Source of the DNA: a virus
Taxonomy: Duplodnaviria; Heunggongvirae; Uroviricota; Caudoviricetes
Strand: one strand, 5' to 3'
DNA length: 18,704 nt
Virus record (IMG/VR): IMGVR_UViG_3300000059_000086
Span: 1-18,704 of that record
Below, piece by piece: positions 339 to 16,257 of this stretch. The first letter of the stretch is position 1; each line of letters begins with the position of its first letter. Both the position numbers and the translations under genes were made by a program. The notes beneath the pieces were generated by a model that ran no database searches, was not told where the DNA came from, and saw only the letters and a program-made list of their open reading frames with translations.

Positions 339-425
339 GGAGAGTAGGGAGCATGGTGCTCAAGCGGTCTTGAAATCCGTCCCGTCGCGCAAGCGATGAT
401 GGTTCGATTCCATTACTCTCCGCCA
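339..425 (+). tRNA. Non-canonical type II tRNA-like gene, probable tRNA-Ser (anticodon UGA)
   Basis: 7-bp acceptor stem GGAGAGT/ACTCTCC, discriminator G plus CCA, T-arm gatgg-TTCGATT-ccatt, long variable arm with tcgc/gcga stem, anticodon loop CTTGAAA; D-arm short and anticodon stem closed by a U-U mismatch, so function is uncertain. Confidence 0.5.
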
Positions 426-853: not shown

Positions 854-929
854 GGCCCTTTAGCTCAGTGGTTAGAGCGGGCGACTCATAATCGCACGGT
901 CACCGGTTCAAGTCCGGTAGGGGCCACCA
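854..929 (+). tRNA. tRNA with CAU anticodon, ileX-like architecture (tRNA-Ile2/lysidine type, or Met)
   Basis: Full 76-nt cloverleaf: acceptor GGCCCTT/AGGGGCC, D-loop AGTGGTTAG, anticodon loop CTCATAA, T-loop TTCAAGT, 3' CCA; closely resembles E. coli ileX as remembered. Confidence 0.85.
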
Positions 930-1383: not shown

Positions 1384-1959
1384 ATGTTAACGGCGAACGA
1401 TAACGCGTATTCAGAAGATGATCTCGTTTTGAGTGACTTTATAGGGCGACGAGAATGCTGGACGCAAAAGCGCGAGGAGCTTTATGCAGCGTTAGTTCGT
1501 AAAGGCGTCAACATCGAAACCGCACAGAACGGCGATATGACAGTGGTAAGTGTTGGACTGCACGGCGTAAGCGTGTCAGCAATCAATCATGAGCCGTACA
1601 TTGCGTTATCCGAGTCGATGGTAAGGTTAGTTAAGTTCCTGAAGTACACAGAAGCGAATAACGTGCTCATCGCCAAAAAGAACATCCCGTTCTCATCGGC
1701 CTTTTACTGGATGATGAAGGGGCTTGATGCCCGGCGAACATCATGGCCTAAAGGGAGCTATATATCGATGCTCCGTGGCAGTGTTGGCAGCAAAGAAAAG
1801 CTCGTCGAATTCCTGCCGGAAGAGGCATTCGATATTGTTGAAGGTTGTGATGTGATGGTTATGCCTCGCCTGGTAATGATGAATGGGGATTTACAGGCGC
1901 AGACAGACTGGTTTGCAACTGGTGTTGATATTATCGCTACTGACTGGGAGGTTTTTTGA
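1384..1959 (+). CDS. Hypothetical protein (191 aa) with a C-terminal DUF2829/Tad2-like segment
   Basis: AAGGAG RBS 7 nt upstream; C-terminal blocks FYWMMKGLDARRTSWPKG and DIIATDWEVF parallel the DUF2829-like C-terminus of the 9601-10263 product. Confidence 0.65.
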   Translation: MLTANDNAYSEDDLVLSDFIGRRECWTQKREELYAALVRKGVNIETAQNGDMTVVSVGLHGVSVSAINHEPYIALSESMVRLVKFLKYTEANNVLIAKKNIPFSSAFYWMMKGLDARRTSWPKGSYISMLRGSVGSKEKLVEFLPEEAFDIVEGCDVMVMPRLVMMNGDLQAQTDWFATGVDIIATDWEVF

Positions 1960-2339: not shown

Positions 2340-2354
2340 TGTTAGTAAGTTAAT

Positions 2355-2367
2355 ATTAATTTTCTAA
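2355..2367 (-). promoter_or_regulatory. Operator-like 13-mer TTAGAAAATTAAT (minus-strand reading) upstream of the lpa-like gene
   Basis: Identical 13-mer at 8194-8206 and close variants at 6797-6809 and 6888-6900; all lie in promoter-proximal intergenic DNA. Confidence 0.4.
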
Positions 2368-2446
2368 TACATCATGTTTTTGACAGTCTTCTCAGTATTA
2401 ACAAGCTGATTATCATCCCCTCGGTCTTTTTCTGTCCGGGGGATAA

Positions 2447-2839
2447 ATGGAGCAAATCAGTAGCGCCGAAATAGCGGATATCATGATCAGGGCTGACTGC
2501 TATCTGACGGTCACCGAAATCACCAGCCGTGCAAAAGCACAATATCCTCACCTTCATGTGTCGCGCGTAAACGTAAATAACATCATACGTTTTTTTGTTC
2601 GTTCCAGTCGTGCCATTTGCGAAATAGACGACCGCGTATACCCCCGGAAATATTGGCTACATGGCCTGAATGGATACCAGTTCAAGGTGCGCGGGCGCAC
2701 TCCTGAATTCGGTCGGCTGTTGGTGAAAAACACCAACCGAAAGATAGAAGCTCAATTACGAAAGGAGCAGCGTCAGTTGGTGGCGATGACTAACCAGCTA
2801 TGGAACGCCGCCGTGAAAAAACGTGAGGCTTCCCTATGA
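2447..2839 (+). CDS. lpa: Small basic protein (130 aa) immediately upstream of and overlapping pacA; positional equivalent of P1 Lpa (late promoter activator)
   Basis: Stop overlaps the pacA start (ATGA); assignment rests on synteny with P1 lpa-pacA-pacB, not on recognised sequence similarity. Confidence 0.45.
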   Translation: MEQISSAEIADIMIRADCYLTVTEITSRAKAQYPHLHVSRVNVNNIIRFFVRSSRAICEIDDRVYPRKYWLHGLNGYQFKVRGRTPEFGRLLVKNTNRKIEAQLRKEQRQLVAMTNQLWNAAVKKREASL

Positions 2840-4200
2840 CGTTAATTAATTGGGAAGCGCATCGAGCTAAGTTCCTGGAGTTAAGAGAAGAAACCGGGAT
2901 CACCATAAAGGAATATTGCGAGCAGCATGACCTCAGCTTTAACACCGCCAGAAAGCATCTCAATATGAAAAAAAATGAGGTTAAAGCGAAAGCTAAGGCT
3001 GCCGGGAAAAGTACAAAACAGCGCGCAAAAAGCAGCGCCACAAGCCCAAAAAAAGAGCAAAAAAAGGCTGATAAAAACACAGAATTTACAAAAACTGACA
3101 AATCGTTAGCTGGTGGACGATTCCGTGCCATGCCGCAAAAACAAAATGCGGATCACAAAGAAAAGTCAAGTAATAACAACAAGATACACAAGGGTGTAAG
3201 GGGATCATTTTGTGATGAAATGGGGGAAATGATCCCTAAAAGCAGCGAAAAAGCCCAACGAAACAAGGGATCATTGCAAATGATCCCTGACTCATCAGCT
3301 CAAAGCGCCACTTTGCCTGCCACCAACGTCGCCCGTGAGATGATGAAGAACGGCGCGACTGAACATTTACGACTTGCGATACAGATGGCGCAGGAACGAG
3401 CAATTCAGTATCAGGCCATCGTTGACCAGGAAGCGGAACGACTACAGGAAGAGATTGACGCCCTCGGCGATACACAGCCAGAGGGAATGCACCCAGGGCA
3501 GCGTCTTCTCGGCCTAATAAGCGATGCGGCCTACTACATGAATGACTTTATCAGTAGGTTGGCTGCCATCTACCAGACCGAGCAGAAGCTACGCCAGGGG
3601 GATGAAAAACTTGCGCAGGGCGCGCGCCAGCAGGCATTCAGAGAGGCTGAGGCCAGAGAAAAACTGGCGATTACTCGCCTGCAAGCCGAGCAGCGTGGCA
3701 AAGAGATTGAGTATCGCATTGGCGCTGACGCACGCGCCGCCAGAGTTATCGCCGCCGCTATACGTATGCGTGAGCGCGAGGAGCTGGACGATATAGGCGT
3801 TGCTGAATATATCGAGCGGCAGGGCGTCAGTGTCCCGGCTATCCTGGCGGCACGAGCGGCAAAAGCGATCTCACTTCTGGAGCCTCCGGTTTCTGACGTT
3901 AACGATGTTGATGATGAGCAACTGGATAAAGAGGCGAAGCAGTTTGCCGAGCAACAAGCTGGACTCCCACAATGGCTTGCACAACGCCGGGCTGAAGTAG
4001 CGAAAATCGTTGATAGGCTTGGGATGGGGGATTACGACCGGAACGGAGAACGTAAAGCCGGTGAATTTGAGGCCAATGATGAAGACCTGAATATAGACCC
4101 TTCCGCCACGGCTGATATCTACGGTGATTATGACGCGGGGGATACCGGTTTTGATGCTGTAGATGACGAGATTGCGATAGACCAGCCGGAGGATGACTAA
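2836..4200 (+). CDS. pacA: PacA-like terminase small/recognition subunit (454 aa)
   Basis: N-terminal HTH-like segment, long charged coiled region, very acidic C-terminal tail; coupled to a downstream terminase ATPase; contains the GATC hexamer cluster. Confidence 0.75.
   Translation: MTLINWEAHRAKFLELREETGITIKEYCEQHDLSFNTARKHLNMKKNEVKAKAKAAGKSTKQRAKSSATSPKKEQKKADKNTEFTKTDKSLAGGRFRAMPQKQNADHKEKSSNNNKIHKGVRGSFCDEMGEMIPKSSEKAQRNKGSLQMIPDSSAQSATLPATNVAREMMKNGATEHLRLAIQMAQERAIQYQAIVDQEAERLQEEIDALGDTQPEGMHPGQRLLGLISDAAYYMNDFISRLAAIYQTEQKLRQGDEKLAQGARQQAFREAEAREKLAITRLQAEQRGKEIEYRIGADARAARVIAAAIRMREREELDDIGVAEYIERQGVSVPAILAARAAKAISLLEPPVSDVNDVDDEQLDKEAKQFAEQQAGLPQWLAQRRAEVAKIVDRLGMGDYDRNGERKAGEFEANDEDLNIDPSATADIYGDYDAGDTGFDAVDDEIAIDQPEDD
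3151..3285. promoter_or_regulatory. Candidate pac packaging site: five copies of hexamer TGATCC/GGATCA, each containing a Dam GATC
   Basis: GATC at 3151, 3203, 3231, 3269, 3282 in both orientations, two pairs forming AGGGATCATT...AATGATCCCT inverted repeats; the P1 pac site is a cluster of TGATCA/G hexamers inside pacA. Confidence 0.45.
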
Positions 4201-5708
4201 TGGCTGGTGGTCGTAAGATTAAGTGCGTGACCAGTGATCCACGTTGGCGCGATATGGTTATCAGGTATCGATACAACTTTACCCAGGCGGTTGTCGATAT
4301 TTTTGGGATGTTCCCCTCCCACCAGCAGCAGCAGATCATTCAGTCAGTGCAGGAGACGGGGAGCAGGACGACCGTTACGTCCGGACACGGAACGGGTAAG
4401 TCGTCCCTTACCGCGATGTTGCTACTAATTTTTATGATCCTGTTCCCCGACGCCCGCGTCATTATTGTTGCGAACAAAATAGGCCAGGTAAAAACAGGCG
4501 TATTCAAATACGTGAAACAGTTTTGGGCGAATGCTGTTAAGCGCCACGGCTGGTTACAGACCTATTTTGTCCTGTCTGACACCATGTTTTATGAGCGTTC
4601 CCGTAAAGGGATATGGGAAGTGCTCTGTAAAGGTTATCGACTCGGTAACGAAGAGGCACTGGCGGGGGAGCACGCGGAGCATTTACTGCTAATCCTTGAT
4701 GAAGCATCGGGCATATCCGATAAGGCGATTAACGTCATGACGGGGGCGTTAACGCAGAAAGATAACCGTATGCTCATGCTTTCCCAGCCTACGCGTCCAA
4801 GCGGTTACTTTTATGAATCCCACCATTCAAGGGCAAAGGCAGAAGGCAATCCGGAAGGAGTCTGGACGGCAATAGTCCTTAACTCTGAAGAATCACCATT
4901 CGTTGAACCGAGCTTTATTCGTGAGAAATTGCTTGAGTACGGCGGCAGGGATTCGCTGGAGTACATGGTTAAGGTGCTGGGCCAGTTCCCGCGTGCAATT
5001 AACGGGTATTTGCTTGGTCGTGATGAGTGCGACCGCGCCGCACGGCGTAAAGTGTTGCTGGAGAAAGATTGGGGCTGGGTAGCGACCGCTGACGTCGGTA
5101 ATGGTCGCGACAAATCGGTGCTCAATATATGCAAAGTATCCGGTTATCGTGAGAAAAGACGTGTTGTGAACTTTAAGATACTGGAGATGCCAGGCACTAT
5201 GGACCCGTTGGCTTTTGCCGACTTTATCTATAACGAATGCACTCCTGATAAATACCCGAACATCACCATTGCTGTGGATGCTGATGGCTTTGGTTCAGAT
5301 ACGTGTGCGCAGCTTGTCCGCCGTGGTGCTAACCCCGTTCGCATCCGTTGGGGTAAACCTATGTTTGCGCTAAGAGACAGAGAACGCTTTGTCAATCAGC
5401 GTGCTTACGCCAATATTATGGCAGGGGATGCCATTAAATCAGGGCGTATGCGTATCGATAGTGACCCCAAAACTGCCGATCAGGCATCAAAAATCCCGTA
5501 TATGCTTAACGAAGAAGGGAAGGTAGCGATGATGCGCAAGGAGCACATGCGGCAGAAGTTAAACATCAAGTCGCCGGACAGATGGGATACCTACTGCTTC
5601 ACTATGCTGGTGGATTACGTGCCTGCTAATGAAGACATTGGCGCAGAACTCGCAACATTCCGCGATCAGGTGTTGGCAGAAGTGGATATTCCTGATATTG
5701 ACATTTAA
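4200..5708 (+). CDS. pacB: PacB-like terminase large subunit (502 aa), ATPase plus nuclease
   Basis: P-loop GHGTGKSS, Walker B LLLILDEASG, C-terminal acidic cluster (VDADGFGSD) consistent with an RNase H-like nuclease half; GGAGGA RBS; start overlaps the pacA stop. Confidence 0.9.
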   Translation: MAGGRKIKCVTSDPRWRDMVIRYRYNFTQAVVDIFGMFPSHQQQQIIQSVQETGSRTTVTSGHGTGKSSLTAMLLLIFMILFPDARVIIVANKIGQVKTGVFKYVKQFWANAVKRHGWLQTYFVLSDTMFYERSRKGIWEVLCKGYRLGNEEALAGEHAEHLLLILDEASGISDKAINVMTGALTQKDNRMLMLSQPTRPSGYFYESHHSRAKAEGNPEGVWTAIVLNSEESPFVEPSFIREKLLEYGGRDSLEYMVKVLGQFPRAINGYLLGRDECDRAARRKVLLEKDWGWVATADVGNGRDKSVLNICKVSGYREKRRVVNFKILEMPGTMDPLAFADFIYNECTPDKYPNITIAVDADGFGSDTCAQLVRRGANPVRIRWGKPMFALRDRERFVNQRAYANIMAGDAIKSGRMRIDSDPKTADQASKIPYMLNEEGKVAMMRKEHMRQKLNIKSPDRWDTYCFTMLVDYVPANEDIGAELATFRDQVLAEVDIPDIDI

Positions 5709-5709
5709 A

Positions 5710-5729
5710 AGCCCCGGCGATTCGGGGCT
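5710..5729 (-). terminator. GC-rich hairpin (AGCCCCG-gcgatt-CGGGGCT) between convergent pacB and the 346-aa gene
   Basis: 7-bp stem; a T-run follows on the minus strand (TTTTAAATGT), so it most likely terminates the minus-strand gene and may act weakly for pacB. Confidence 0.55.
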
Positions 5730-5745
5730 TGTGGGTGGCTTGCGA

Positions 5746-6783
5746 TTACCAGAGTTTTGCCGCGTACATCGTTTGTGTGAATGTGTACCCATAGCGTTCT
5801 TCAACGCTTTTACCGTATTTTTTCCTGGCTTCAGTAAGGCGGATGCCTGTCAGGTCATCGCCGGAGGCAATCATAACTTCCAGTAGTTCCAGGTCCATTT
5901 TATCCAGCCTTGCCATTGCATCTTTAGCTTCTTGAATTTTCCGGCTAACGATCTGGTGTATGGCTGGATCGGCTTCGGACAGCATTTTCTCTGATTTGTT
6001 TTTTAAACTCTGATTGCGGATATCAATGTTTCTCAGGATATATGACTTCACGACATAGCTTGGCTGCTGCTTTTCCAGGTCACGAACCCGATAAAGGTCA
6101 AATTCACCGAGAAGGCCGCACGGAAGCGGTTTAATGCCAGTGTAAATGGTAAGGGTGCGGCGCTCACCAACGTTGTTAACAATGGGGATCTCAGTGTTTG
6201 CTTTTCTTGCAAAGATCAGCGCACCGTGCGTACCCACTCTGAAGCGAGAAAGTCCATTGTTGCCCTCGATATTGGTGGTAATCACAACATCGGTATAACC
6301 TTCTTTTCTTGCGCGGTATACCTCGCCCTCACGTTCAGCGGCGAAGAATCTGCGTTCTTCTTCAAGTGCACCGACAACCTGTGAAAATATCCTGTTTTTC
6401 ATGCTTTTCTTTATAGTTTTATCGTATTTTTTCAGCAGGTCTTCGCGCGTGAATGTTCTCGTTGTGGTTGCGCTTTGCATAACGATATGCGTACTCTGAT
6501 TAGTATCCTCAACAATGAATGGGATCGGTAAATAAACCGACTCAACAATGTTTGAGGCTTTGTCATCATCCTTGCGACACAGATCAACAAAGGCTTTCCA
6601 TTCGGCTATGCATTTTTCAGCTTCTTCTAATACAGCCGGATCATGTGTTAATGCAACATGGCGAAATTCCTCGCCAACGTAACTGGTATCATGGAAAACA
6701 GAGTTTGCGACCACCAGCTCTTTCCACCGTTCAGCGGTTTGCAGGAACCGTTTGTACTCATTCTCGATCGACTTCTTACTCAT
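5746..6783 (-). CDS. 346-aa protein in the c1 position of the immC region (between pacB and the recombination site); possible immunity repressor, identity unconfirmed
   Basis: ATG at 6783 with AGGAA RBS (the track's longer ORF starts at an upstream in-frame codon); convergent with pacB; operator-like 13-mers lie just upstream; no HTH or C1 similarity recognised by eye. Confidence 0.8.
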   Translation of the reverse strand: MSKKSIENEYKRFLQTAERWKELVVANSVFHDTSYVGEEFRHVALTHDPAVLEEAEKCIAEWKAFVDLCRKDDDKASNIVESVYLPIPFIVEDTNQSTHIVMQSATTTRTFTREDLLKKYDKTIKKSMKNRIFSQVVGALEEERRFFAAEREGEVYRARKEGYTDVVITTNIEGNNGLSRFRVGTHGALIFARKANTEIPIVNNVGERRTLTIYTGIKPLPCGLLGEFDLYRVRDLEKQQPSYVVKSYILRNIDIRNQSLKNKSEKMLSEADPAIHQIVSRKIQEAKDAMARLDKMDLELLEVMIASGDDLTGIRLTEARKKYGKSVEERYGYTFTQTMYAAKLW

Positions 6784-6796
6784 TATTCCTACTCGA

Positions 6797-6809
6797 TTTA
6801 GTTTTCTAA
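6797..6809 (-). promoter_or_regulatory. Operator-like 13-mer TTAGAAAACTAAA (minus-strand reading), 14 bp upstream of the 346-aa gene start
   Basis: Variant of the 13-mer at 2355 and 8194. Confidence 0.4.
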
Positions 6810-6887
6810 CATAAAAGTCCTGTGACAAATTTATGCTGAATAACAAGGTGAGTAAAGGATAAAACCGCTTTTTTTTGATTGTTCCTA

Positions 6888-6900
6888 TTAGAAAATGTAA
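6888..6900 (+). promoter_or_regulatory. Operator-like 13-mer TTAGAAAATGTAA in inverted orientation relative to 6797-6809
   Basis: Same core TTAGAAAA; paired inverted sites between the 346-aa gene and rox. Confidence 0.35.
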
Positions 6901-6980: not shown

Positions 6981-7012
6981 TAACTTTAAATAATTGGCAT
7001 TATTTAAAGTTA
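6981..7012. other. rox: rox-type site-specific recombination site: 14-bp perfect inverted repeats around a 4-bp spacer (TAACTTTAAATAAT-TGGC-ATTATTTAAAGTTA)
   Basis: Perfect palindromic arms; equals the reverse complement of the published rox site as remembered; lies about 150 bp upstream of the Cre-family recombinase gene. Confidence 0.85.
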
Positions 7013-7164
7013 GGCTATAATCTCCAGTAAACAGGTAGTATTGACAAGGATGAAAAATCATGCCTCGAATCAAAGGCTTGAATTTTTAAAATTAACTTAT
7101 AACTACCCTGTCAGTTTTCTATTTTTCACGTAGCGTCATCTGTATATAGAGGTTTAATAGTTTC

Positions 7165-8193
7165 ATGGGTGAACTAGTTATCTCCGGCGGTTCTGGCGGT
7201 TTTCTGCGCGATATTGGCACCGAATACCAGGAAGCTGCAAAAAACTTTATGCAGTTCATGAACGACCAGGGAGCTTATGCCCCAAATACACTTCGTGATC
7301 TCCGTCTGGTCTTTCATTCCTGGGCGCGGTGGTGTAATTCGCGCCAGCGCCCCTGGTTCCCGATTACGCCGGAAATGGCCCGCGAGTATCTTCTCCAGTT
7401 GCATGAAGCCGATCTGGCTTCGACCACCATTGATAAGCACTATGCCATGCTTAACATGCTGCTTTCGCAATGCGGCCTACCGCCGCTGTCAGACGATAAA
7501 AGTGTATCTCTGGCCATGCGGCGCATCCGGCGCGAAGCGGCAACGGAAAAAGGCGAGCGTACAGGCCAGGCTATACCGTTGCGGTGGGATGATCTGAAAT
7601 TGCTCGACGTATTGCTGTCCCGTTCCGAGCGGCTGGTGGACCTGCGCAATCGGGCGTTTCTCTTCGTGGCATACAATACCCTGATGCGTATGTCAGAAAT
7701 CTCGCGCATCCGTGTCGGAGATCTGGACCAAACAGGTGACACTGTAACGCTGCATATTTCACACACGAAGACCATCACGACCGCCGCCGGACTTGATAAG
7801 GTGCTTTCTCGTTGCACTACCGCCGTGCTAAACGACTGGCTGGAGGTGTCCGGACTTCGTGAACATCCGGACGCGGTGCTATTCCCGCCAATACACCGCA
7901 GTAATAAAGCCAGAATCACGACAACGCCTCTTACTGCTCCTGCGATGGAGAAAATATTCAGCGATGCCTGGGGATTGCTGAATAAGCGAGATGCCACGCC
8001 GAACAAAGGAAGATACCGGACGTGGACAGGTCATAGTGCGCGTGTTGGTGCGGCAATTGATATGGCTGAGAAACAGGTGTCAATGGTCGAGATCATGCAG
8101 GAAGGCACATGGAAAAAGCCCGAAACACTTATGCGATATTTGCGCCGTAGCGGGGCATCCGTTGGTGCAAATAGTCGCCTGATGGATTCCTGA
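7165..8193 (+). CDS. dre: Cre-family tyrosine recombinase, Dre-like (342 aa)
   Basis: Cre-like blocks along its length: WARWC, RNRAFLFVAYNTLMRMSEISRIRVGDL, HSARVGAAIDMA, and the tyrosine block ETLMRYLR; adjacent rox site. Confidence 0.93.
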   Translation: MGELVISGGSGGFLRDIGTEYQEAAKNFMQFMNDQGAYAPNTLRDLRLVFHSWARWCNSRQRPWFPITPEMAREYLLQLHEADLASTTIDKHYAMLNMLLSQCGLPPLSDDKSVSLAMRRIRREAATEKGERTGQAIPLRWDDLKLLDVLLSRSERLVDLRNRAFLFVAYNTLMRMSEISRIRVGDLDQTGDTVTLHISHTKTITTAAGLDKVLSRCTTAVLNDWLEVSGLREHPDAVLFPPIHRSNKARITTTPLTAPAMEKIFSDAWGLLNKRDATPNKGRYRTWTGHSARVGAAIDMAEKQVSMVEIMQEGTWKKPETLMRYLRRSGASVGANSRLMDS

Positions 8194-8206
8194 ATTAATT
8201 TTCTAA
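8194..8206 (-). promoter_or_regulatory. Operator-like 13-mer TTAGAAAATTAAT directly after the dre stop, upstream of the accessory operon
   Basis: Identical to the 13-mer at 2355-2367. Confidence 0.4.
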
Positions 8207-8235
8207 CAATCTTTTTAGACAGTGCATTTTAATGT

Positions 8236-9600: not shown

Positions 9601-10263
9601 ATGGTCAGCACTTTTCAGGTGTTCCCCAAATACAAATGCCACAGCATCATTCGGGCATCGAAAATCAAAGATATTGTTATTGTCGGCGAAGATTATGCGC
9701 CCATTTTTGGCAGTATCGAAGTCGTTGAGCCAAAAGGAATGACGCTTCGTGTTGATGGTGTGTTCTTGGAAAAATTCCGCCCGCAAATAGGAGGATATCT
9801 CGTCACTGCTGAAAATGGCTATCTGGTCTATGTGCCAGAGAAAGCATTTGAAAAATGCTATAGCCGGGTTAACGACGCCTTCGAAAATGGGACATTGCTC
9901 AGCATTGAAGGTCACAATGGGGTGACATTCATTACAGCCAGGGACGTAACTATTTCTGCTGGCGGTATCGCTACTCTACAAGAAGAAATCGACCTTGAAG
10001 CAGCCGACTTTTCTGACGCGCTGATGTGGCTGAAGGATGGCAAGAAAGTTGCTCGACGCGGGTGGAACGGCGAAAACCAATTCTGCTGGCTGGTTCCTGA
10101 AGGACAGTACCCGGCACGAATGGAAGCCATTAAGGGATATTTCCCCGGCGACCTCGTTCCGTATGGTGCTTATTTCGCCTTAAAAAATGCACAAGGTGTA
10201 GTTGTTCCGTGGGTGCCTTCAGTTGGCGACCTGCTGGCCTGTGACTGGTTTGTTGTGGAGTGA
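9601..10263 (+). CDS. Two-domain protein (220 aa): unknown N-terminal domain fused to a C-terminal DUF2829/Tad2-like domain
   Basis: AGGAAGG RBS; C-terminal blocks ALMWLKDGKKVARRGWNGEN and PWVPSVGDLLACDWFVV match the remembered DUF2829 signature. Confidence 0.7.
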   Translation: MVSTFQVFPKYKCHSIIRASKIKDIVIVGEDYAPIFGSIEVVEPKGMTLRVDGVFLEKFRPQIGGYLVTAENGYLVYVPEKAFEKCYSRVNDAFENGTLLSIEGHNGVTFITARDVTISAGGIATLQEEIDLEAADFSDALMWLKDGKKVARRGWNGENQFCWLVPEGQYPARMEAIKGYFPGDLVPYGAYFALKNAQGVVVPWVPSVGDLLACDWFVVE

Positions 10264-12170: not shown

Positions 12171-12200
12171 AAGCCCGCCTGGTTGAGCGGGCTTCTTTTC
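12171..12200 (+). terminator. Rho-independent terminator (AAGCCCGC-ctggttga-GCGGGCTT followed by CTTTTC)
   Basis: 8-bp GC-rich stem and T-run immediately after the operon stop; sits between convergent operons. Confidence 0.7.
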
Positions 12201-12579
12201 AAATATTGGAACCATATAGTTCACGTAGTTTCTCCGCTACTGAAGATACGGGGATTTCACCAGTTGCAGCCCCAACCGCAAGTTCCACCAGCACGGGAGA
12301 ATCATATACCTGTATACCGTTACGGCGTAGAAATAGCAGCGCACTGTTTAGCGCGGTACGCTTATTGGCATCATTGAATATATGCCCTCTCGCAGTAGCC
12401 ACCAGGTAGGTGGCGGAGACTTCGAAAAGGTCGGTGATCTCTTCGTAGGCAACTCTGGCCTGAACTCTCCCGATAATGGCCTCTGCCCTACCCGGATCTG
12501 ACATTCCCGGCAGGCCGCCGTAGCGGTTTATATTCGCATCATGAAGCGCAATAAGTTCTTCCGGTGATATATGCCTCAT
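12199..12579 (-). CDS. doc: Doc toxin (Fic/Doc family kinase) of the phd-doc addiction module
   Basis: Doc signature [11 protein letters not shown]; near-identical in character to P1 Doc; start overlaps the phd stop (TAATG). Confidence 0.93.
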
Positions 12580-12800
12580 TATCGGTTAACCAGTTCCTTG
12601 TTGGTGGAGTCCAGAGTGTCAAACAGGGATGCAAATTCGGCATCCAGCGCCGCTTTTTTGTAGGCTTCAAAAGTAGCCTTGTTGACAATTACTGCTGGCT
12701 CACGGCCTCTGCGGGTGATTTCAACCTCTTCCCCGGCTTCAACATTGTTGAGCACTTCAGAAAGGTTGCCGCGCGCGGTACGGAAGTTAATGGATTGCAT
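12579..12800 (-). CDS. phd: Phd antitoxin
   Basis: Protein [39 protein letters not shown]... matches P1 Phd as remembered; GAGGTG RBS; start taken at the ATG two codons inside the track ORF. Confidence 0.93.
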
Positions 12801-12807
12801 AAACACC

Positions 12808-12872: not shown

Positions 12873-13262
12873 TTAAATCACCGGACAATCATCAAATTCC
12901 CCACTTCGGGCATCATTGATGACATGAGTGATCACACCAAAAACAGCATTACTGCCCGTGTATCCATCGTCATCTACTGGTAACGCCTCTTTCTTCCCGG
13001 TTCTTAAATCCTCCAGGTGCTGGCGCGGATACTTCCGGTATCTTTTTACGCGATATTCCCCCTCCATAGCGCATATAAGCAGTGAACCATCAACCGGAGT
13101 AAGTGAGGAATCAACCACCAGCAAAGCACCCTGCAATATTCCCTCACGGTGATGGCTGTCTGCCGCCCGCATGAAGTAGGTTGCTGAAGGATGTCTGATT
13201 AGTTGCTGATCAAGAGAAATACGGCTCTCTGCATAATCCGCCGCAGGAGAAGGGAAGCCCAT
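12873..13262 (-). CDS. humD: HumD, UmuD'-like SOS mutagenesis protein (S24 peptidase fold)
   Basis: GFPSPAADYxExRIxLxQxLIxHPSATYF block typical of UmuD; begins at the position equivalent to processed UmuD'. Confidence 0.88.
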   Translation of the reverse strand: MGFPSPAADYAESRISLDQQLIRHPSATYFMRAADSHHREGILQGALLVVDSSLTPVDGSLLICAMEGEYRVKRYRKYPRQHLEDLRTGKKEALPVDDDGYTGSNAVFGVITHVINDARSGEFDDCPVI

Positions 13263-13280: not shown

Positions 13281-13300
13281 TACTGTTTATTCATACAGTA
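13281..13300. promoter_or_regulatory. LexA (SOS) box TACTGT-TTATTCAT-ACAGTA upstream of humD
   Basis: Exact CTGT-N8-ACAG with flanking TA/TA, 19 bp upstream of the humD start. Confidence 0.7.
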
Positions 13301-13357: not shown

Positions 13358-13753
13358 CTAATCACATTGGTGTGTGGACTTACCATTCATATATTGCAAA
13401 ATGCTTGATTCGATTTTTTCATTAAAATCATAATGATGCTCCTCAAGGACAAAGCGCGCCTTATTGTTGCGCACAATAACCTCCGCCAACGGCTTAACCA
13501 GAGATGTGGAGTTAGAGATTTTCTCGGCGCGCTCTACATCGCTTTTAAACGTTACGATGAAGTGCTGGTGGCCTGGTGACCGGCGACACAACATGCGTCG
13601 CACTTCCACGGTATCTTCACGGCCTTGGGTATGTACAGGAAAGCTATCAACCACCGCTGTATTGGTGCGGATTGTCTGCATAGAACGCGTGTTGTCGTGA
13701 TAGTTAAGCATGTTTAATGTCTCCCCCATCTTGCCGTTATTTTTTTGGTGCAT
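13358..13753 (-). CDS. lxr: Lxr-like protein (position as P1 lxr between hot and humD)
   Basis: Synteny hot-lxr-humD-phd-doc as in P1; start uncertain (13753 overlaps the hot 3' end; alternatives at 13729 or 13711). Confidence 0.55.
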
Positions 13754-13988
13754 CCTCGTTCTGATACACCGGATCGCTCCCTTTTGGCAACTGGAGGCTT
13801 AACTGCCGGTAGTGCCGTAGCCGTTCCATGAAATAGGCGCGCAGGTTTTCCGGTTGCTCACGGGCCACCTGCTCTGCAATCACAGGTATATTCAGCCGTT
13901 CTTTGTAAGCAACGCCGCTGGCGGCAAGGTCTACGTTCACCTTGTCTCGCTCTTCCTGGCTTTTAGCTGCTATATTTCGATCTGACAC
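13737..13988 (-). CDS. hot: Hot, homologue of DNA polymerase III theta subunit (HolE)
   Basis: Block [36 protein letters not shown] parallels E. coli theta; GTG start with perfect AGGAGG RBS at 7-nt spacing. Confidence 0.88.
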
Positions 13989-16185: not shown

Positions 16186-16239
16186 TATCCGTTATCAAAA
16201 TTGGAATATCCGTTATCACGAGAGTGATATCCGTTATGA
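16186..16239. repeat. Three direct repeats of TATCCGTTAT(C/G)A at 20-bp spacing, immediately upstream of the secreted-protein gene
   Basis: Copies at 16187, 16207 and 16227 with exact 20-bp periodicity, in the promoter region of 15969-16178. Confidence 0.6.
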
Positions 16240-16257
16240 AGTGGGGAATAAGACCAC

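What the first reader, a model, noticed from the sequence alone, without database searches (positions are those of the whole stretch)
5746..6783. Gene in the c1 position encodes a 346-aa protein with no features I can tie to a repressor
By synteny (pacB - convergent gene - recombination site - recombinase) this should be the immunity repressor, and operator-like motifs sit at its promoter. However, the protein is longer than P1 C1 and I see no helix-turn-helix or other familiar repressor signature. It is either a strongly diverged C1 or a different protein that has replaced it.
Basis: inference. Interest (0 to 1): 0.5.

Follow-up and report, generated by a model that had tools for sequence, protein, structure and literature searches.

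The report
Diverged P1-type C1 prophage repressor
The gene is the master lysogeny repressor of a D6-like plasmid prophage of E. coli: a real but very distant relative of the phage P1 C1 repressor that is already annotated as such in public databases, so the finding is ordinary.

Summary
The ORF at 5746-6783 (-) is real and encodes 345 aa (346 codons with the stop). The window is a D6-like plasmid prophage of E. coli. The protein is 80% identical to phage D6 C1 and 100% identical to NCBI entries named "phage repressor protein".

It is homologous to P1 C1 over residues ~7-241:
- pairwise BLASTP: 21% identity, E 1e-7
- profile-profile: probability 97.5%, E 5e-12
- same PHROG (1678) and same precomputed Pfam accession (PF27008)

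The "replaced by an unrelated protein" alternative is therefore refuted.

The missing helix-turn-helix is not peculiar to this protein, because no HTH model matches P1 C1 either. The AlphaFold model (pLDDT 85) has only one significant solved-structure match: E. coli Tus, a protein that binds asymmetric DNA sites.

P1-type operators are absent. A different motif, TTAATTTTCTAAYA, is the most over-represented word in both the closest plasmid and D6. It lies twice at the c1 promoter, and also upstream of lpa, repL and ref.

The extra ~100 C-terminal residues form a helical hairpin under purifying selection. No coi, imcA, imcB or lxc homologues were found. Repression itself is inferred, not shown. 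Low interest.

The parts
5746..6783 (-). c1 gene: 345-aa C1-family prophage repressor (D6 type)
   Evidence: ORF. 80% aa identity to D6 C1. 100% identical to WP_086351773.1 'phage repressor protein'. dN/dS against D6 c1 is 0.11.
6049..6783 (-). Core of the protein (aa 1-245), homologous to P1 C1 residues 8-246; predicted alpha/beta Tus-like DNA-binding fold
5746..6048 (-). C-terminal extension (aa 246-345 plus stop) with no counterpart in P1 C1: long helical hairpin plus three short helices
   Evidence: Not aligned to P1 C1. Model helices 233-270, 273-307, 316-323, 325-331 and 335-342. dN/dS 0.065. No Pfam family and no similarity to Lxc.
5709..5732 (.). GC-rich hairpin between the convergent pacB and c1 genes. 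On the minus strand it reads GCCCCG-aatcgc-CGGGGC followed by TTTTAAAT, so it is a likely terminator of c1.
   Evidence: Read directly from the sequence. The consensus scan did not report it.
6798..6811 (+). Proximal operator-like site TTAGTTTTCTAACA, 15-28 nt upstream of the c1 ATG, between the putative promoter and the Shine-Dalgarno sequence
   Evidence: Identical in D6.
6886..6899 (-). Distal operator-like site TACATTTTCTAATA upstream of the c1 promoter
   Evidence: Only partly conserved in D6 (TGGTTTTCTAAAA).
6828..6856 (-). Putative weak c1 promoter: TTTACT, 17-nt spacer, TAAATT (8 of 12 matches), fully conserved in D6
   Evidence: Read. Below the threshold of the consensus scan. Inference only.
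6981..7012 (.). rox recombination site (14-4-14), identical to D6 rox
   Evidence: (I17).
7165..8193 (+). dre: Cre-like tyrosine recombinase, 94% identical to D6 Dre
4200..5708 (+). pacB, the pacase (terminase) B subunit, convergent with c1
   Evidence: 92% aa identity to D6 PacB.
2340..2369 (.). Inverted pair of operator-like sites (TGTTAGTAAGTTAA TA TTAATTTTCTAATA) just upstream of lpa (2447-2839), the late-promoter activator gene
   Evidence: (I4). lpa identified by PF25716, E 4e-50. The right half-site is conserved in D6.
8195..8208 (+). Operator-like site TTAATTTTCTAACA between dre and the next operon (8266 onwards)
   Evidence: A syntenic site is present in D6.

Best explanation
The gene encodes the C1-type master repressor of lytic functions (the immC repressor) of a D6-like plasmid prophage. 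It is a true but highly diverged homologue of phage P1 C1.

Inferred mechanism: the ~245-residue core, which has no helix-turn-helix, binds an asymmetric operator of about 14 bp, consensus (T)TTAATTTTCTAAYA. In the closest plasmid, 12 sites carry the exact 11-bp core, and weaker copies raise the count to about 20. These sites occur singly or as 30-bp inverted pairs. They lie at the promoters of c1 itself (two sites flanking the putative promoter, giving autoregulation), of lpa (late-gene activator), of repL (lytic replication), of ref and of other operons. Occupied sites would keep the prophage silent and give superinfection immunity.

Operator specificity differs from P1, so heteroimmunity to P1 is expected. 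The D6-type protein also carries a ~100-residue C-terminal helical hairpin, which I propose mediates self-association or partner binding on the paired operators. The P1 accessory proteins Coi, ImcA/B and Lxc have no detectable homologues here.

Shown: homology, gene order, purifying selection, and the existence, enrichment and placement of the motif. Inferred: that this protein binds that motif, that it represses, and what the C-terminal extension does.
For: Identity of the element:
- 81% nt identity to the D6 immC region, whose c1 is annotated 'phage repressor protein; similar to the C1 repressor of phage P1'.
- 80% aa identity to D6 C1 at equal length.
- The exact sequence is named 'phage repressor protein' and occurs on 189 contigs of ~90 kb.

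Homology to P1 C1:
- BLASTP aligns residues 7-237 with 8-242, E 1e-7.
- Both proteins match phrog_1678 end to end.
- NCBIfam phage_rep_C1 gives a collinear hit, E 1.6e-5.
- Both subfamilies carry PF27008.1.
- hhalign probability 97.5%, E 5e-12 over 230 columns.
- 15 columns are invariant across both subfamilies.
- The family has 126 representatives at 50% identity, with lengths from ~250 to ~400 aa.

Selection: dN/dS 0.11.

Operators:
- No P1 operator in the window at up to 3 mismatches.
- TTTTCTAAYA occurs 4 times in the window against 0.07 expected.
- 12 exact ATTTTCTAAYA sites in pEC361_3 against 0.12 in Markov simulations.
- An unbiased 10-mer enrichment ranks words of this motif first in both pEC361_3 and D6, ahead of Chi.
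- Sites are intergenic and lie at c1, lpa, ref, repL, rdgC and other genes in both genomes. This parallels the P1 C1 regulon as annotated and as described in PMC8546580.

Against: - No experiment on this protein or, to my knowledge, on D6 C1 shows DNA binding or immunity.
- The link between the protein and the motif is by analogy with P1 and by placement only.
- The NCBIfam C1 equivalog cut-off is missed by a wide margin (24.6 vs 500 bits), and database-scale tblastn does not reach P1.
- No coi, imcA, imcB or lxc homologue was found, so the control circuit is not the P1 circuit.
- There is no sequence signal linking the C1 family to Tus.
- TM-scores are only ~0.4.
Confidence: 0.85

Rival explanations
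1. Non-orthologous displacement: an unrelated protein has taken the c1 position, and the real repressor is encoded elsewhere.
For: No HTH or repressor domain in the local Pfam-A copy. tblastn at database scale does not reach P1 c1. The protein is 62 aa longer than P1 C1.
Against: Collinear homology over ~235 residues by BLASTP and by profile-profile comparison (97.5%, E 5e-12). Shared PHROG and shared Pfam accession. Invariant residues across both subfamilies.
Confidence: 0.02
2. It is a C1 homologue with a changed job. For example, it could be a Tus-like DNA clamp acting on replication or plasmid maintenance, or it could need a different partner. The dispersed TTTTCTAAYA motif would then be bound by another factor.
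For: Tus is the only significant structural match. The P1 partners Coi and Lxc are absent. The C-terminal domain is new relative to P1. Binding of the motif by this protein is untested.
Against: P1 C1, the experimentally characterised family member, is a transcriptional repressor with dispersed operators (PMC8546580; annotation). The motif sits at promoters of the same functional classes of genes as in P1, including the protein's own promoter. The motif shares the TCTAA(T/C)A core with the P1 operator.
Confidence: 0.1
3. It is a decaying or non-functional remnant in a defective plasmid prophage.
For: Frameshifted and chimeric versions of the gene exist in public assemblies (P0091, P0148).
Against: The frame is intact. 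dN/dS is 0.11 over the whole length and 0.065 in the C-terminal part. The identical protein occurs on 189 contigs and close relatives on more than 100 complete ~90-kb plasmids. The promoter and operator region is conserved with D6, a viable phage.
Confidence: 0.03

Closest known systems
C1 of Escherichia phage D6 (AAV84948.1 / ASR76322.1; immC region AY753669, genome MF356679)
   Same: Same length (345 aa). 80% identity and 90% positives with no gaps. Same position between pacB and rox/dre. Same C-terminal extension. Same operator-like motif at syntenic places in the genome.
   Different: 20% amino-acid divergence, within the range of the neighbouring genes (71-94%). The distal c1 operator copy is degenerate in D6. 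Whether the two phages are homoimmune is untested.
C1 repressor of phages P1 and P7 (283 aa; NCBIfam NF041318; annotated operators in NC_005856)
   Same: Homologous core of ~240 residues. Same PHROG and Pfam accession. Same locus in immC. No HTH match in the local Pfam-A copy for either protein. Many asymmetric operators dispersed over the genome, including at c1, lpa, ref and repL, some as inverted pairs. The operators share a TCTAA(T/C)A core.
   Different: Only ~21% identity. Far below the equivalog cut-off. Operator consensus is TTAATTTTCTAAYA instead of ATTGCTCTAATAAATTT, and neither genome carries the other's operator. Paired sites are non-overlapping, with conserved cores ~22 bp apart, whereas the two 17-bp sites of P1 Oc1ab overlap by 6 bp. 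A ~100-aa helical C-terminal extension replaces the short basic tail of P1 C1. No coi, imcA, imcB or lxc homologues. The c1-to-recombinase spacer is 381 bp here; in P1 the corresponding region holds coi, imcB, imcA and cra.
E. coli Tus (replication terminus site-binding protein; PDB 1ecr, 4xr0-4xr2; Pfam PF05472)

Membership tests
P1 C1 repressor family (Pfam PF27008 / PHROG 1678) | Significant, collinear sequence similarity to P1 C1 over the conserved core | tested here: met
   BLASTP E 1e-7, residues 7-237 vs 8-242. hhalign 97.5%, E 5e-12. phrog_1678 E 5e-159, with P1 C1 at E 3e-140. PF27008.1 is precomputed on relatives of both proteins.
P1 C1 repressor family (Pfam PF27008 / PHROG 1678) | Equivalog level: score above the NCBIfam NF041318 cut-off (500 bits) | tested here: not met
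   24.6 bits, E 1.6e-5. It belongs to the wider family but not to the P1/P7 C1 equivalog group.
P1 C1 repressor family (Pfam PF27008 / PHROG 1678) | Location in immC: convergent with pacB, next to the lox/rox site and the Cre-type recombinase | tested here: met
P1 C1 repressor family (Pfam PF27008 / PHROG 1678) | Many dispersed asymmetric operator copies, including at its own promoter and at lpa, repL and ref | tested here: met
   The motif TTAATTTTCTAAYA has 12 exact cores in pEC361_3 against 0.12 expected. It is the top-ranked over-represented word in two genomes. Sites lie at c1, lpa, ref, repL and other genes. Only the presence of the motif is tested, not binding.
P1 C1 repressor family (Pfam PF27008 / PHROG 1678) | Recognition of the P1 operator ATTGCTCTAATAAATTT | tested here: not met
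   No match with up to 3 mismatches in the window, and only one 4-mismatch chance-level match in D6 immC. The specificity is different.
P1 C1 repressor family (Pfam PF27008 / PHROG 1678) | Control by the antirepressor Coi and the corepressor Lxc | tested here: not met
   tblastn with Coi, ImcA and ImcB finds nothing in the window, pEC361_3 or D6 immC. The 86-aa ORF at the lxc position of D6 is unrelated to Lxc.
P1 C1 repressor family (Pfam PF27008 / PHROG 1678) | Specific operator binding, repression of lytic promoters, superinfection immunity | not testable with these tools
   Needs EMSA or footprinting, reporter assays and plating tests.
D6-type long-form C1 subfamily | ~345-360 aa with the conserved C-terminal helical module (…MD.EL…SGDDL…ARK.YG..IEE..G.TF…) | tested here: met
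   Alignment A1 has invariant C-terminal columns. 80% identity to D6 C1. Long-form representatives P0010 and P0032-P0038 appear.
Tus-like (Ter-binding) fold | Structural similarity to Tus | tested here: inconclusive
Tus-like (Ter-binding) fold | Sequence membership in Pfam PF05472 (Ter) | tested here: not met
   No PF05472 hit for the window protein. hhalign of A3 against Tus gives probability 0.7%.
Classical HTH / LexA-like (S24) phage repressors | HTH DNA-binding domain and/or S24 autocleavage domain | tested here: not met
   No such Pfam or NCBIfam hit. The model is alpha/beta with long beta-strands. There is no LexA box in the c1-dre spacer.

The most novel reading that the evidence does not exclude
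C1-family repressors of P1/D6-type phage-plasmids, including this one, are Tus-fold proteins. On this reading they are monomeric clamps that read an asymmetric site with inter-domain beta-strands rather than an HTH. The D6 branch has in addition acquired a C-terminal helical hairpin that lets two clamps cooperate on 30-bp inverted operator pairs (TGTTAGAAAAT-N8-ATTTTCTAACA). That would replace the Coi/Lxc accessory layer of P1. I found no paper in the held library linking C1 to Tus and no solved structure of any family member.
Probability: 0.4. Interest if true: 0.5.

Novelty: already known. Interest (0 to 1): 0.2.

Why it matters
For genome annotation the result is simple: the gene in the c1 position of D6-like plasmid prophages is a genuine C1-family repressor, and the missing HTH should not be read as evidence for replacement.

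Two by-products could help people working on phage-plasmids, which spread resistance genes in Enterobacteriaceae. The first is a concrete operator consensus for the D6 immunity type, which allows regulon and immunity-group prediction from sequence. The second is a testable structural hypothesis for how the long-studied but structurally uncharacterised P1 C1 family reads asymmetric operators, namely through a Tus-like fold.

Tried and rejected
- **P1 operator search.** ATTGCTCTAATAAATTT with up to 3 mismatches gave no hits in the window.
- **Generic repeat finder.** The operators were not obvious in its output. They emerged from comparing the c1 and lpa upstream regions, and were then confirmed by unbiased k-mer enrichment.
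- **tblastn against phages and plasmids.** It does not reach P1 c1, so single-sequence database searches would wrongly suggest 'no homology'.
- **Local Pfam-A.** It lacks PF27008, so there was no hit for either protein.
- **PDB sequence searches.** Neither the protein nor the family profile found anything.
- **Fused corepressor idea.** I tested whether the C-terminal extension is a fused Lxc corepressor, and whether D6 orf13 (in the lxc position) is Lxc. There was no similarity at all. Rejected for lack of support.
- **P1 accessory genes.** Searches for coi, imcA, imcB, cra and c8 homologues found none.
- **Stand-alone C-terminal module.** Small proteins matching it (P0091, P0145, P0148) proved to be frameshifted or truncated copies of the same gene, not an independent domain family.
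- **LexA box near c1.** None was found. The single box in the window is elsewhere.
- **Sequence link between C1 and Tus.** None.
- **Key papers not available.** Sauer & McDermott 2004, Gilcrease & Casjens 2018 and Lobocka 2004 are not held. I therefore cannot say whether the D6 operator consensus has already been published.
- **Third homologue search.** Running it with the merged alignment added no new sequences.

Full report
**1. The observation.**
The window has an ORF on the minus strand at 5746-6846. That ATG is preceded by AGGA. It is the start annotated in phage D6, and it coincides with the common N-terminus of all long-form homologues.

- pacB, 4200-5708 (+), convergent with the ORF
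- a 32-bp inverted repeat at 6981-7012, identical to the D6 rox site
- a tyrosine recombinase, 7165-8193 (+), 94% identical to D6 Dre

Between pacB and the ORF lies a GC-rich hairpin (5709-5732). On the minus strand it is followed by TTTTAAAT, so it is a likely terminator for the ORF.

**2. Where the window comes from.**
Megablast places the immC part at 81% identity to the phage D6 immC region. Most of the window matches ~90-kb non-mobilizable E. coli plasmids at 96-97.5% identity. The closest for this gene is pEC361_3 (NZ_AP027414.1), where the identical protein is annotated "phage repressor protein". The exact sequence occurs on 189 contigs in public data under that name. The window is therefore a D6-like plasmid prophage.

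**3. Is it a C1?**
D6 c1 is annotated "similar to the C1 repressor of phage P1". The window protein is 80% identical to it, without gaps. I tested the link to P1 C1 directly.

| Test | Result |
|---|---|
| Pairwise BLASTP | residues 7-237 aligned with 8-242, 21% identity, E 1e-7 |
| PHROGs | both proteins match phrog_1678 end to end |
| NCBIfam C1 equivalog model | weak but collinear hit: 24.6 bits, E 1.6e-5, far below the 500-bit cut-off |
| Precomputed Pfam | relatives of both proteins carry PF27008.1 |
| Profile-profile, D6-type vs P1-type alignment | probability 97.5%, E 5e-12, 230 columns |
| Merged alignment | 15 columns invariant across both subfamilies, including R41, R157, R159 |
| Exhaustive profile search | 126 family representatives at 50% identity, lengths ~250 to ~400 aa |

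In the exhaustive search, the long (~345-360 aa) form makes up one branch.

Database-scale tblastn does not connect the two proteins. This explains why the relation looks doubtful at first sight. The protein is a strongly diverged C1-family member, and replacement by an unrelated protein is excluded.

Between the window and D6, dN/dS is 0.11. Divergence of c1 (80%) is within the range of its neighbours (71-94%).

**4. Why no helix-turn-helix.**
P1 C1 has no HTH match either, so this appears to be a property of the family rather than of this protein. No family member has a solved structure.

An AlphaFold2 model built on the 19-sequence alignment has mean pLDDT 85. It shows an alpha/beta core with unusually long beta-strands (99-112 and 155-171), followed by a long helical hairpin.
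- Foldseek finds only four significant hits, all Tus-DNA complexes (E 2e-8 to 4e-7, probability 1.0).

From my own knowledge, Tus is a monomer that reads an asymmetric site with inter-domain beta-strands. That would fit the asymmetric 17-bp operators of P1 C1 (PMC8546580).

The support has limits:
- TM-scores are ~0.4.
- There is no sequence signal linking the family to Tus.

I treat the Tus-like fold as a reasonable hypothesis, not a result. I found no paper in the held library that makes this link.

**5. Operators.**
The P1 operator consensus is absent from the window. Comparing the regions upstream of c1 and lpa revealed a shared ATTTTCTAATA.

The core TTTTCTAAYA occurs four times in the window against 0.07 expected, and 0 of 200 shuffles reach four. 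All four copies are intergenic:
- two flank the putative c1 promoter (6798-6811 and 6886-6899)
- one belongs to an inverted pair just upstream of lpa (2340-2369)
- one lies between dre and the next operon (8195-8208)

In the complete plasmid pEC361_3 there are 12 exact ATTTTCTAAYA sites, against 0.12 in Markov simulations. Several are 30-bp inverted pairs of the form TGTTAGAAAAT-N8-ATTTTCTAACA.

An unbiased 10-mer enrichment ranks words of this motif first in both pEC361_3 and D6, ahead of Chi.

The sites lie upstream of c1, lpa, repL, ref (a divergent pair), rdgC/dmt, the pdcB-like gene and others. D6 has them at the syntenic places. This mirrors the annotated P1 C1 regulon.

The motif shares TCTAA(T/C)A with the P1 operator but differs elsewhere. 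P1 immC has no D6-type sites and D6 has no P1-type sites, so heteroimmunity with P1 is expected (inference). I could not read the D6 genome paper, so I do not know whether this consensus has been published.

**6. Differences from the P1 circuit.**
The c1-to-recombinase spacer is only 381 bp. It holds rox and no plausible gene. Coi, ImcA, ImcB, Cra and C8 have no detectable homologues in the window, in pEC361_3 or in D6 immC. Lxc is likewise absent: the 86-aa ORF that follows ulx in D6, where lxc sits in P1, is unrelated to Lxc. This agrees with PMC6799933.

**7. The C-terminal extension.**
Residues 246-345 have no counterpart in P1 C1, which ends in a short basic tail. The model gives two ~35-residue antiparallel helices plus three short helices. 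The segment has many invariant residues within the D6-type branch and dN/dS 0.065. It matches no Pfam family and is not Lxc-like. Other long family members carry different C-terminal parts, so this region is modular. I propose self-association or partner binding on the paired operators. This is inference only.

**8. Most likely mechanism.**
The protein is the immC master repressor. The core binds the dispersed operators. Two sites bracket a weak, conserved promoter (TTTACT-17-TAAATT, 6856-6828), giving autoregulation. From my own knowledge, autoregulation through several Oc1 operators, with DNA looping, is known for P1 C1. Sites at lpa and repL would block late-gene activation and lytic replication. 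Induction cannot run through Coi. The Icd/Rha-type antirepressor modules annotated elsewhere in D6-like genomes are the obvious candidates.

**9. Verdict.**
The gene is already annotated and was described with D6. The finding is ordinary and of low interest. Its by-products are a candidate D6-type operator consensus and a Tus-like fold hypothesis for the C1 family.

Noticed in passing
window 339-425 and 854-929 (+): Two tRNA genes, tRNA-Ser(UGA) and tRNA-Met(CAU), lie in the region upstream of lpa. Rfam confirms only the second. D6 annotates a tRNA-Ser with the same anticodon plus Thr and Asn tRNAs.
   Followed up: partly
window 1384-1959 (+) and 9601-10263 (+): Two proteins carry a Tad2-like (Thoeris anti-defence 2 / DUF2829, PF11195) C-terminal domain, E 4e-10 and 1.6e-22. 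They are candidate anti-defence genes flanking the immC region.
   Followed up: no
window 13283-13298 (+), upstream of 12873-13262 (-): A LexA-box-like CTGTTTATTCATACAG lies 21 bp upstream of an S24-peptidase (UmuD/HumD-like) gene. This suggests SOS control of that gene. No LexA box lies near c1.
   Followed up: partly
window 12199-12806 (-) and 13737-13988 (-): A phd/doc addiction module and a DNA polymerase III theta (hot-like) gene, as in P1.
   Followed up: partly
window 16186-16250 (+): Three tandem 21-bp repeats begin with TATCCGTTATCA/G (family D3). They look like iterons or a protein-binding array. Function unknown.
   Followed up: no
window 6994-7021 (+): A near-consensus sigma-70 promoter (TTGGCA-16-TATAAT, 11 of 12) starts inside rox and points towards dre. 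Its -35 hexamer lies over the rox spacer and right arm.
   Followed up: no
L005+L006 (pEC361_3) and L007+L008 (D6), genome-wide: After the operator motif, the next most over-represented 10-mers in both genomes all contain Chi (GCTGGTGG).
   Followed up: no
L007 11549-11809 (-) (D6 orf13); pEC361_3 69354-69614 (-): An 86-aa ORF sits directly after ulx, where P1 has the corepressor gene lxc. It shows no sequence similarity to Lxc and belongs to a different PHROG. Whether it is a functional analogue is unknown.
   Followed up: partly
public proteins P0001, P0091, P0148, P0160 (relatives of window 5746-6783): Public assemblies contain 403/404-aa versions of this protein. These may be over-extended start calls, but I did not inspect them. 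There are also frameshifted or chimeric fragments; for example, P0091 continues in the alternative frame of window ORF 5559-5804.
   Followed up: partly
L006 10955-11926 (pEC361_3 pacA) vs window 2836-4200: pacA is annotated as only 972 bp in pEC361_3, whereas the window and D6 have a 1365-bp (454-aa) ORF. This is a likely truncated annotation or a frameshift in that record.
   Followed up: no
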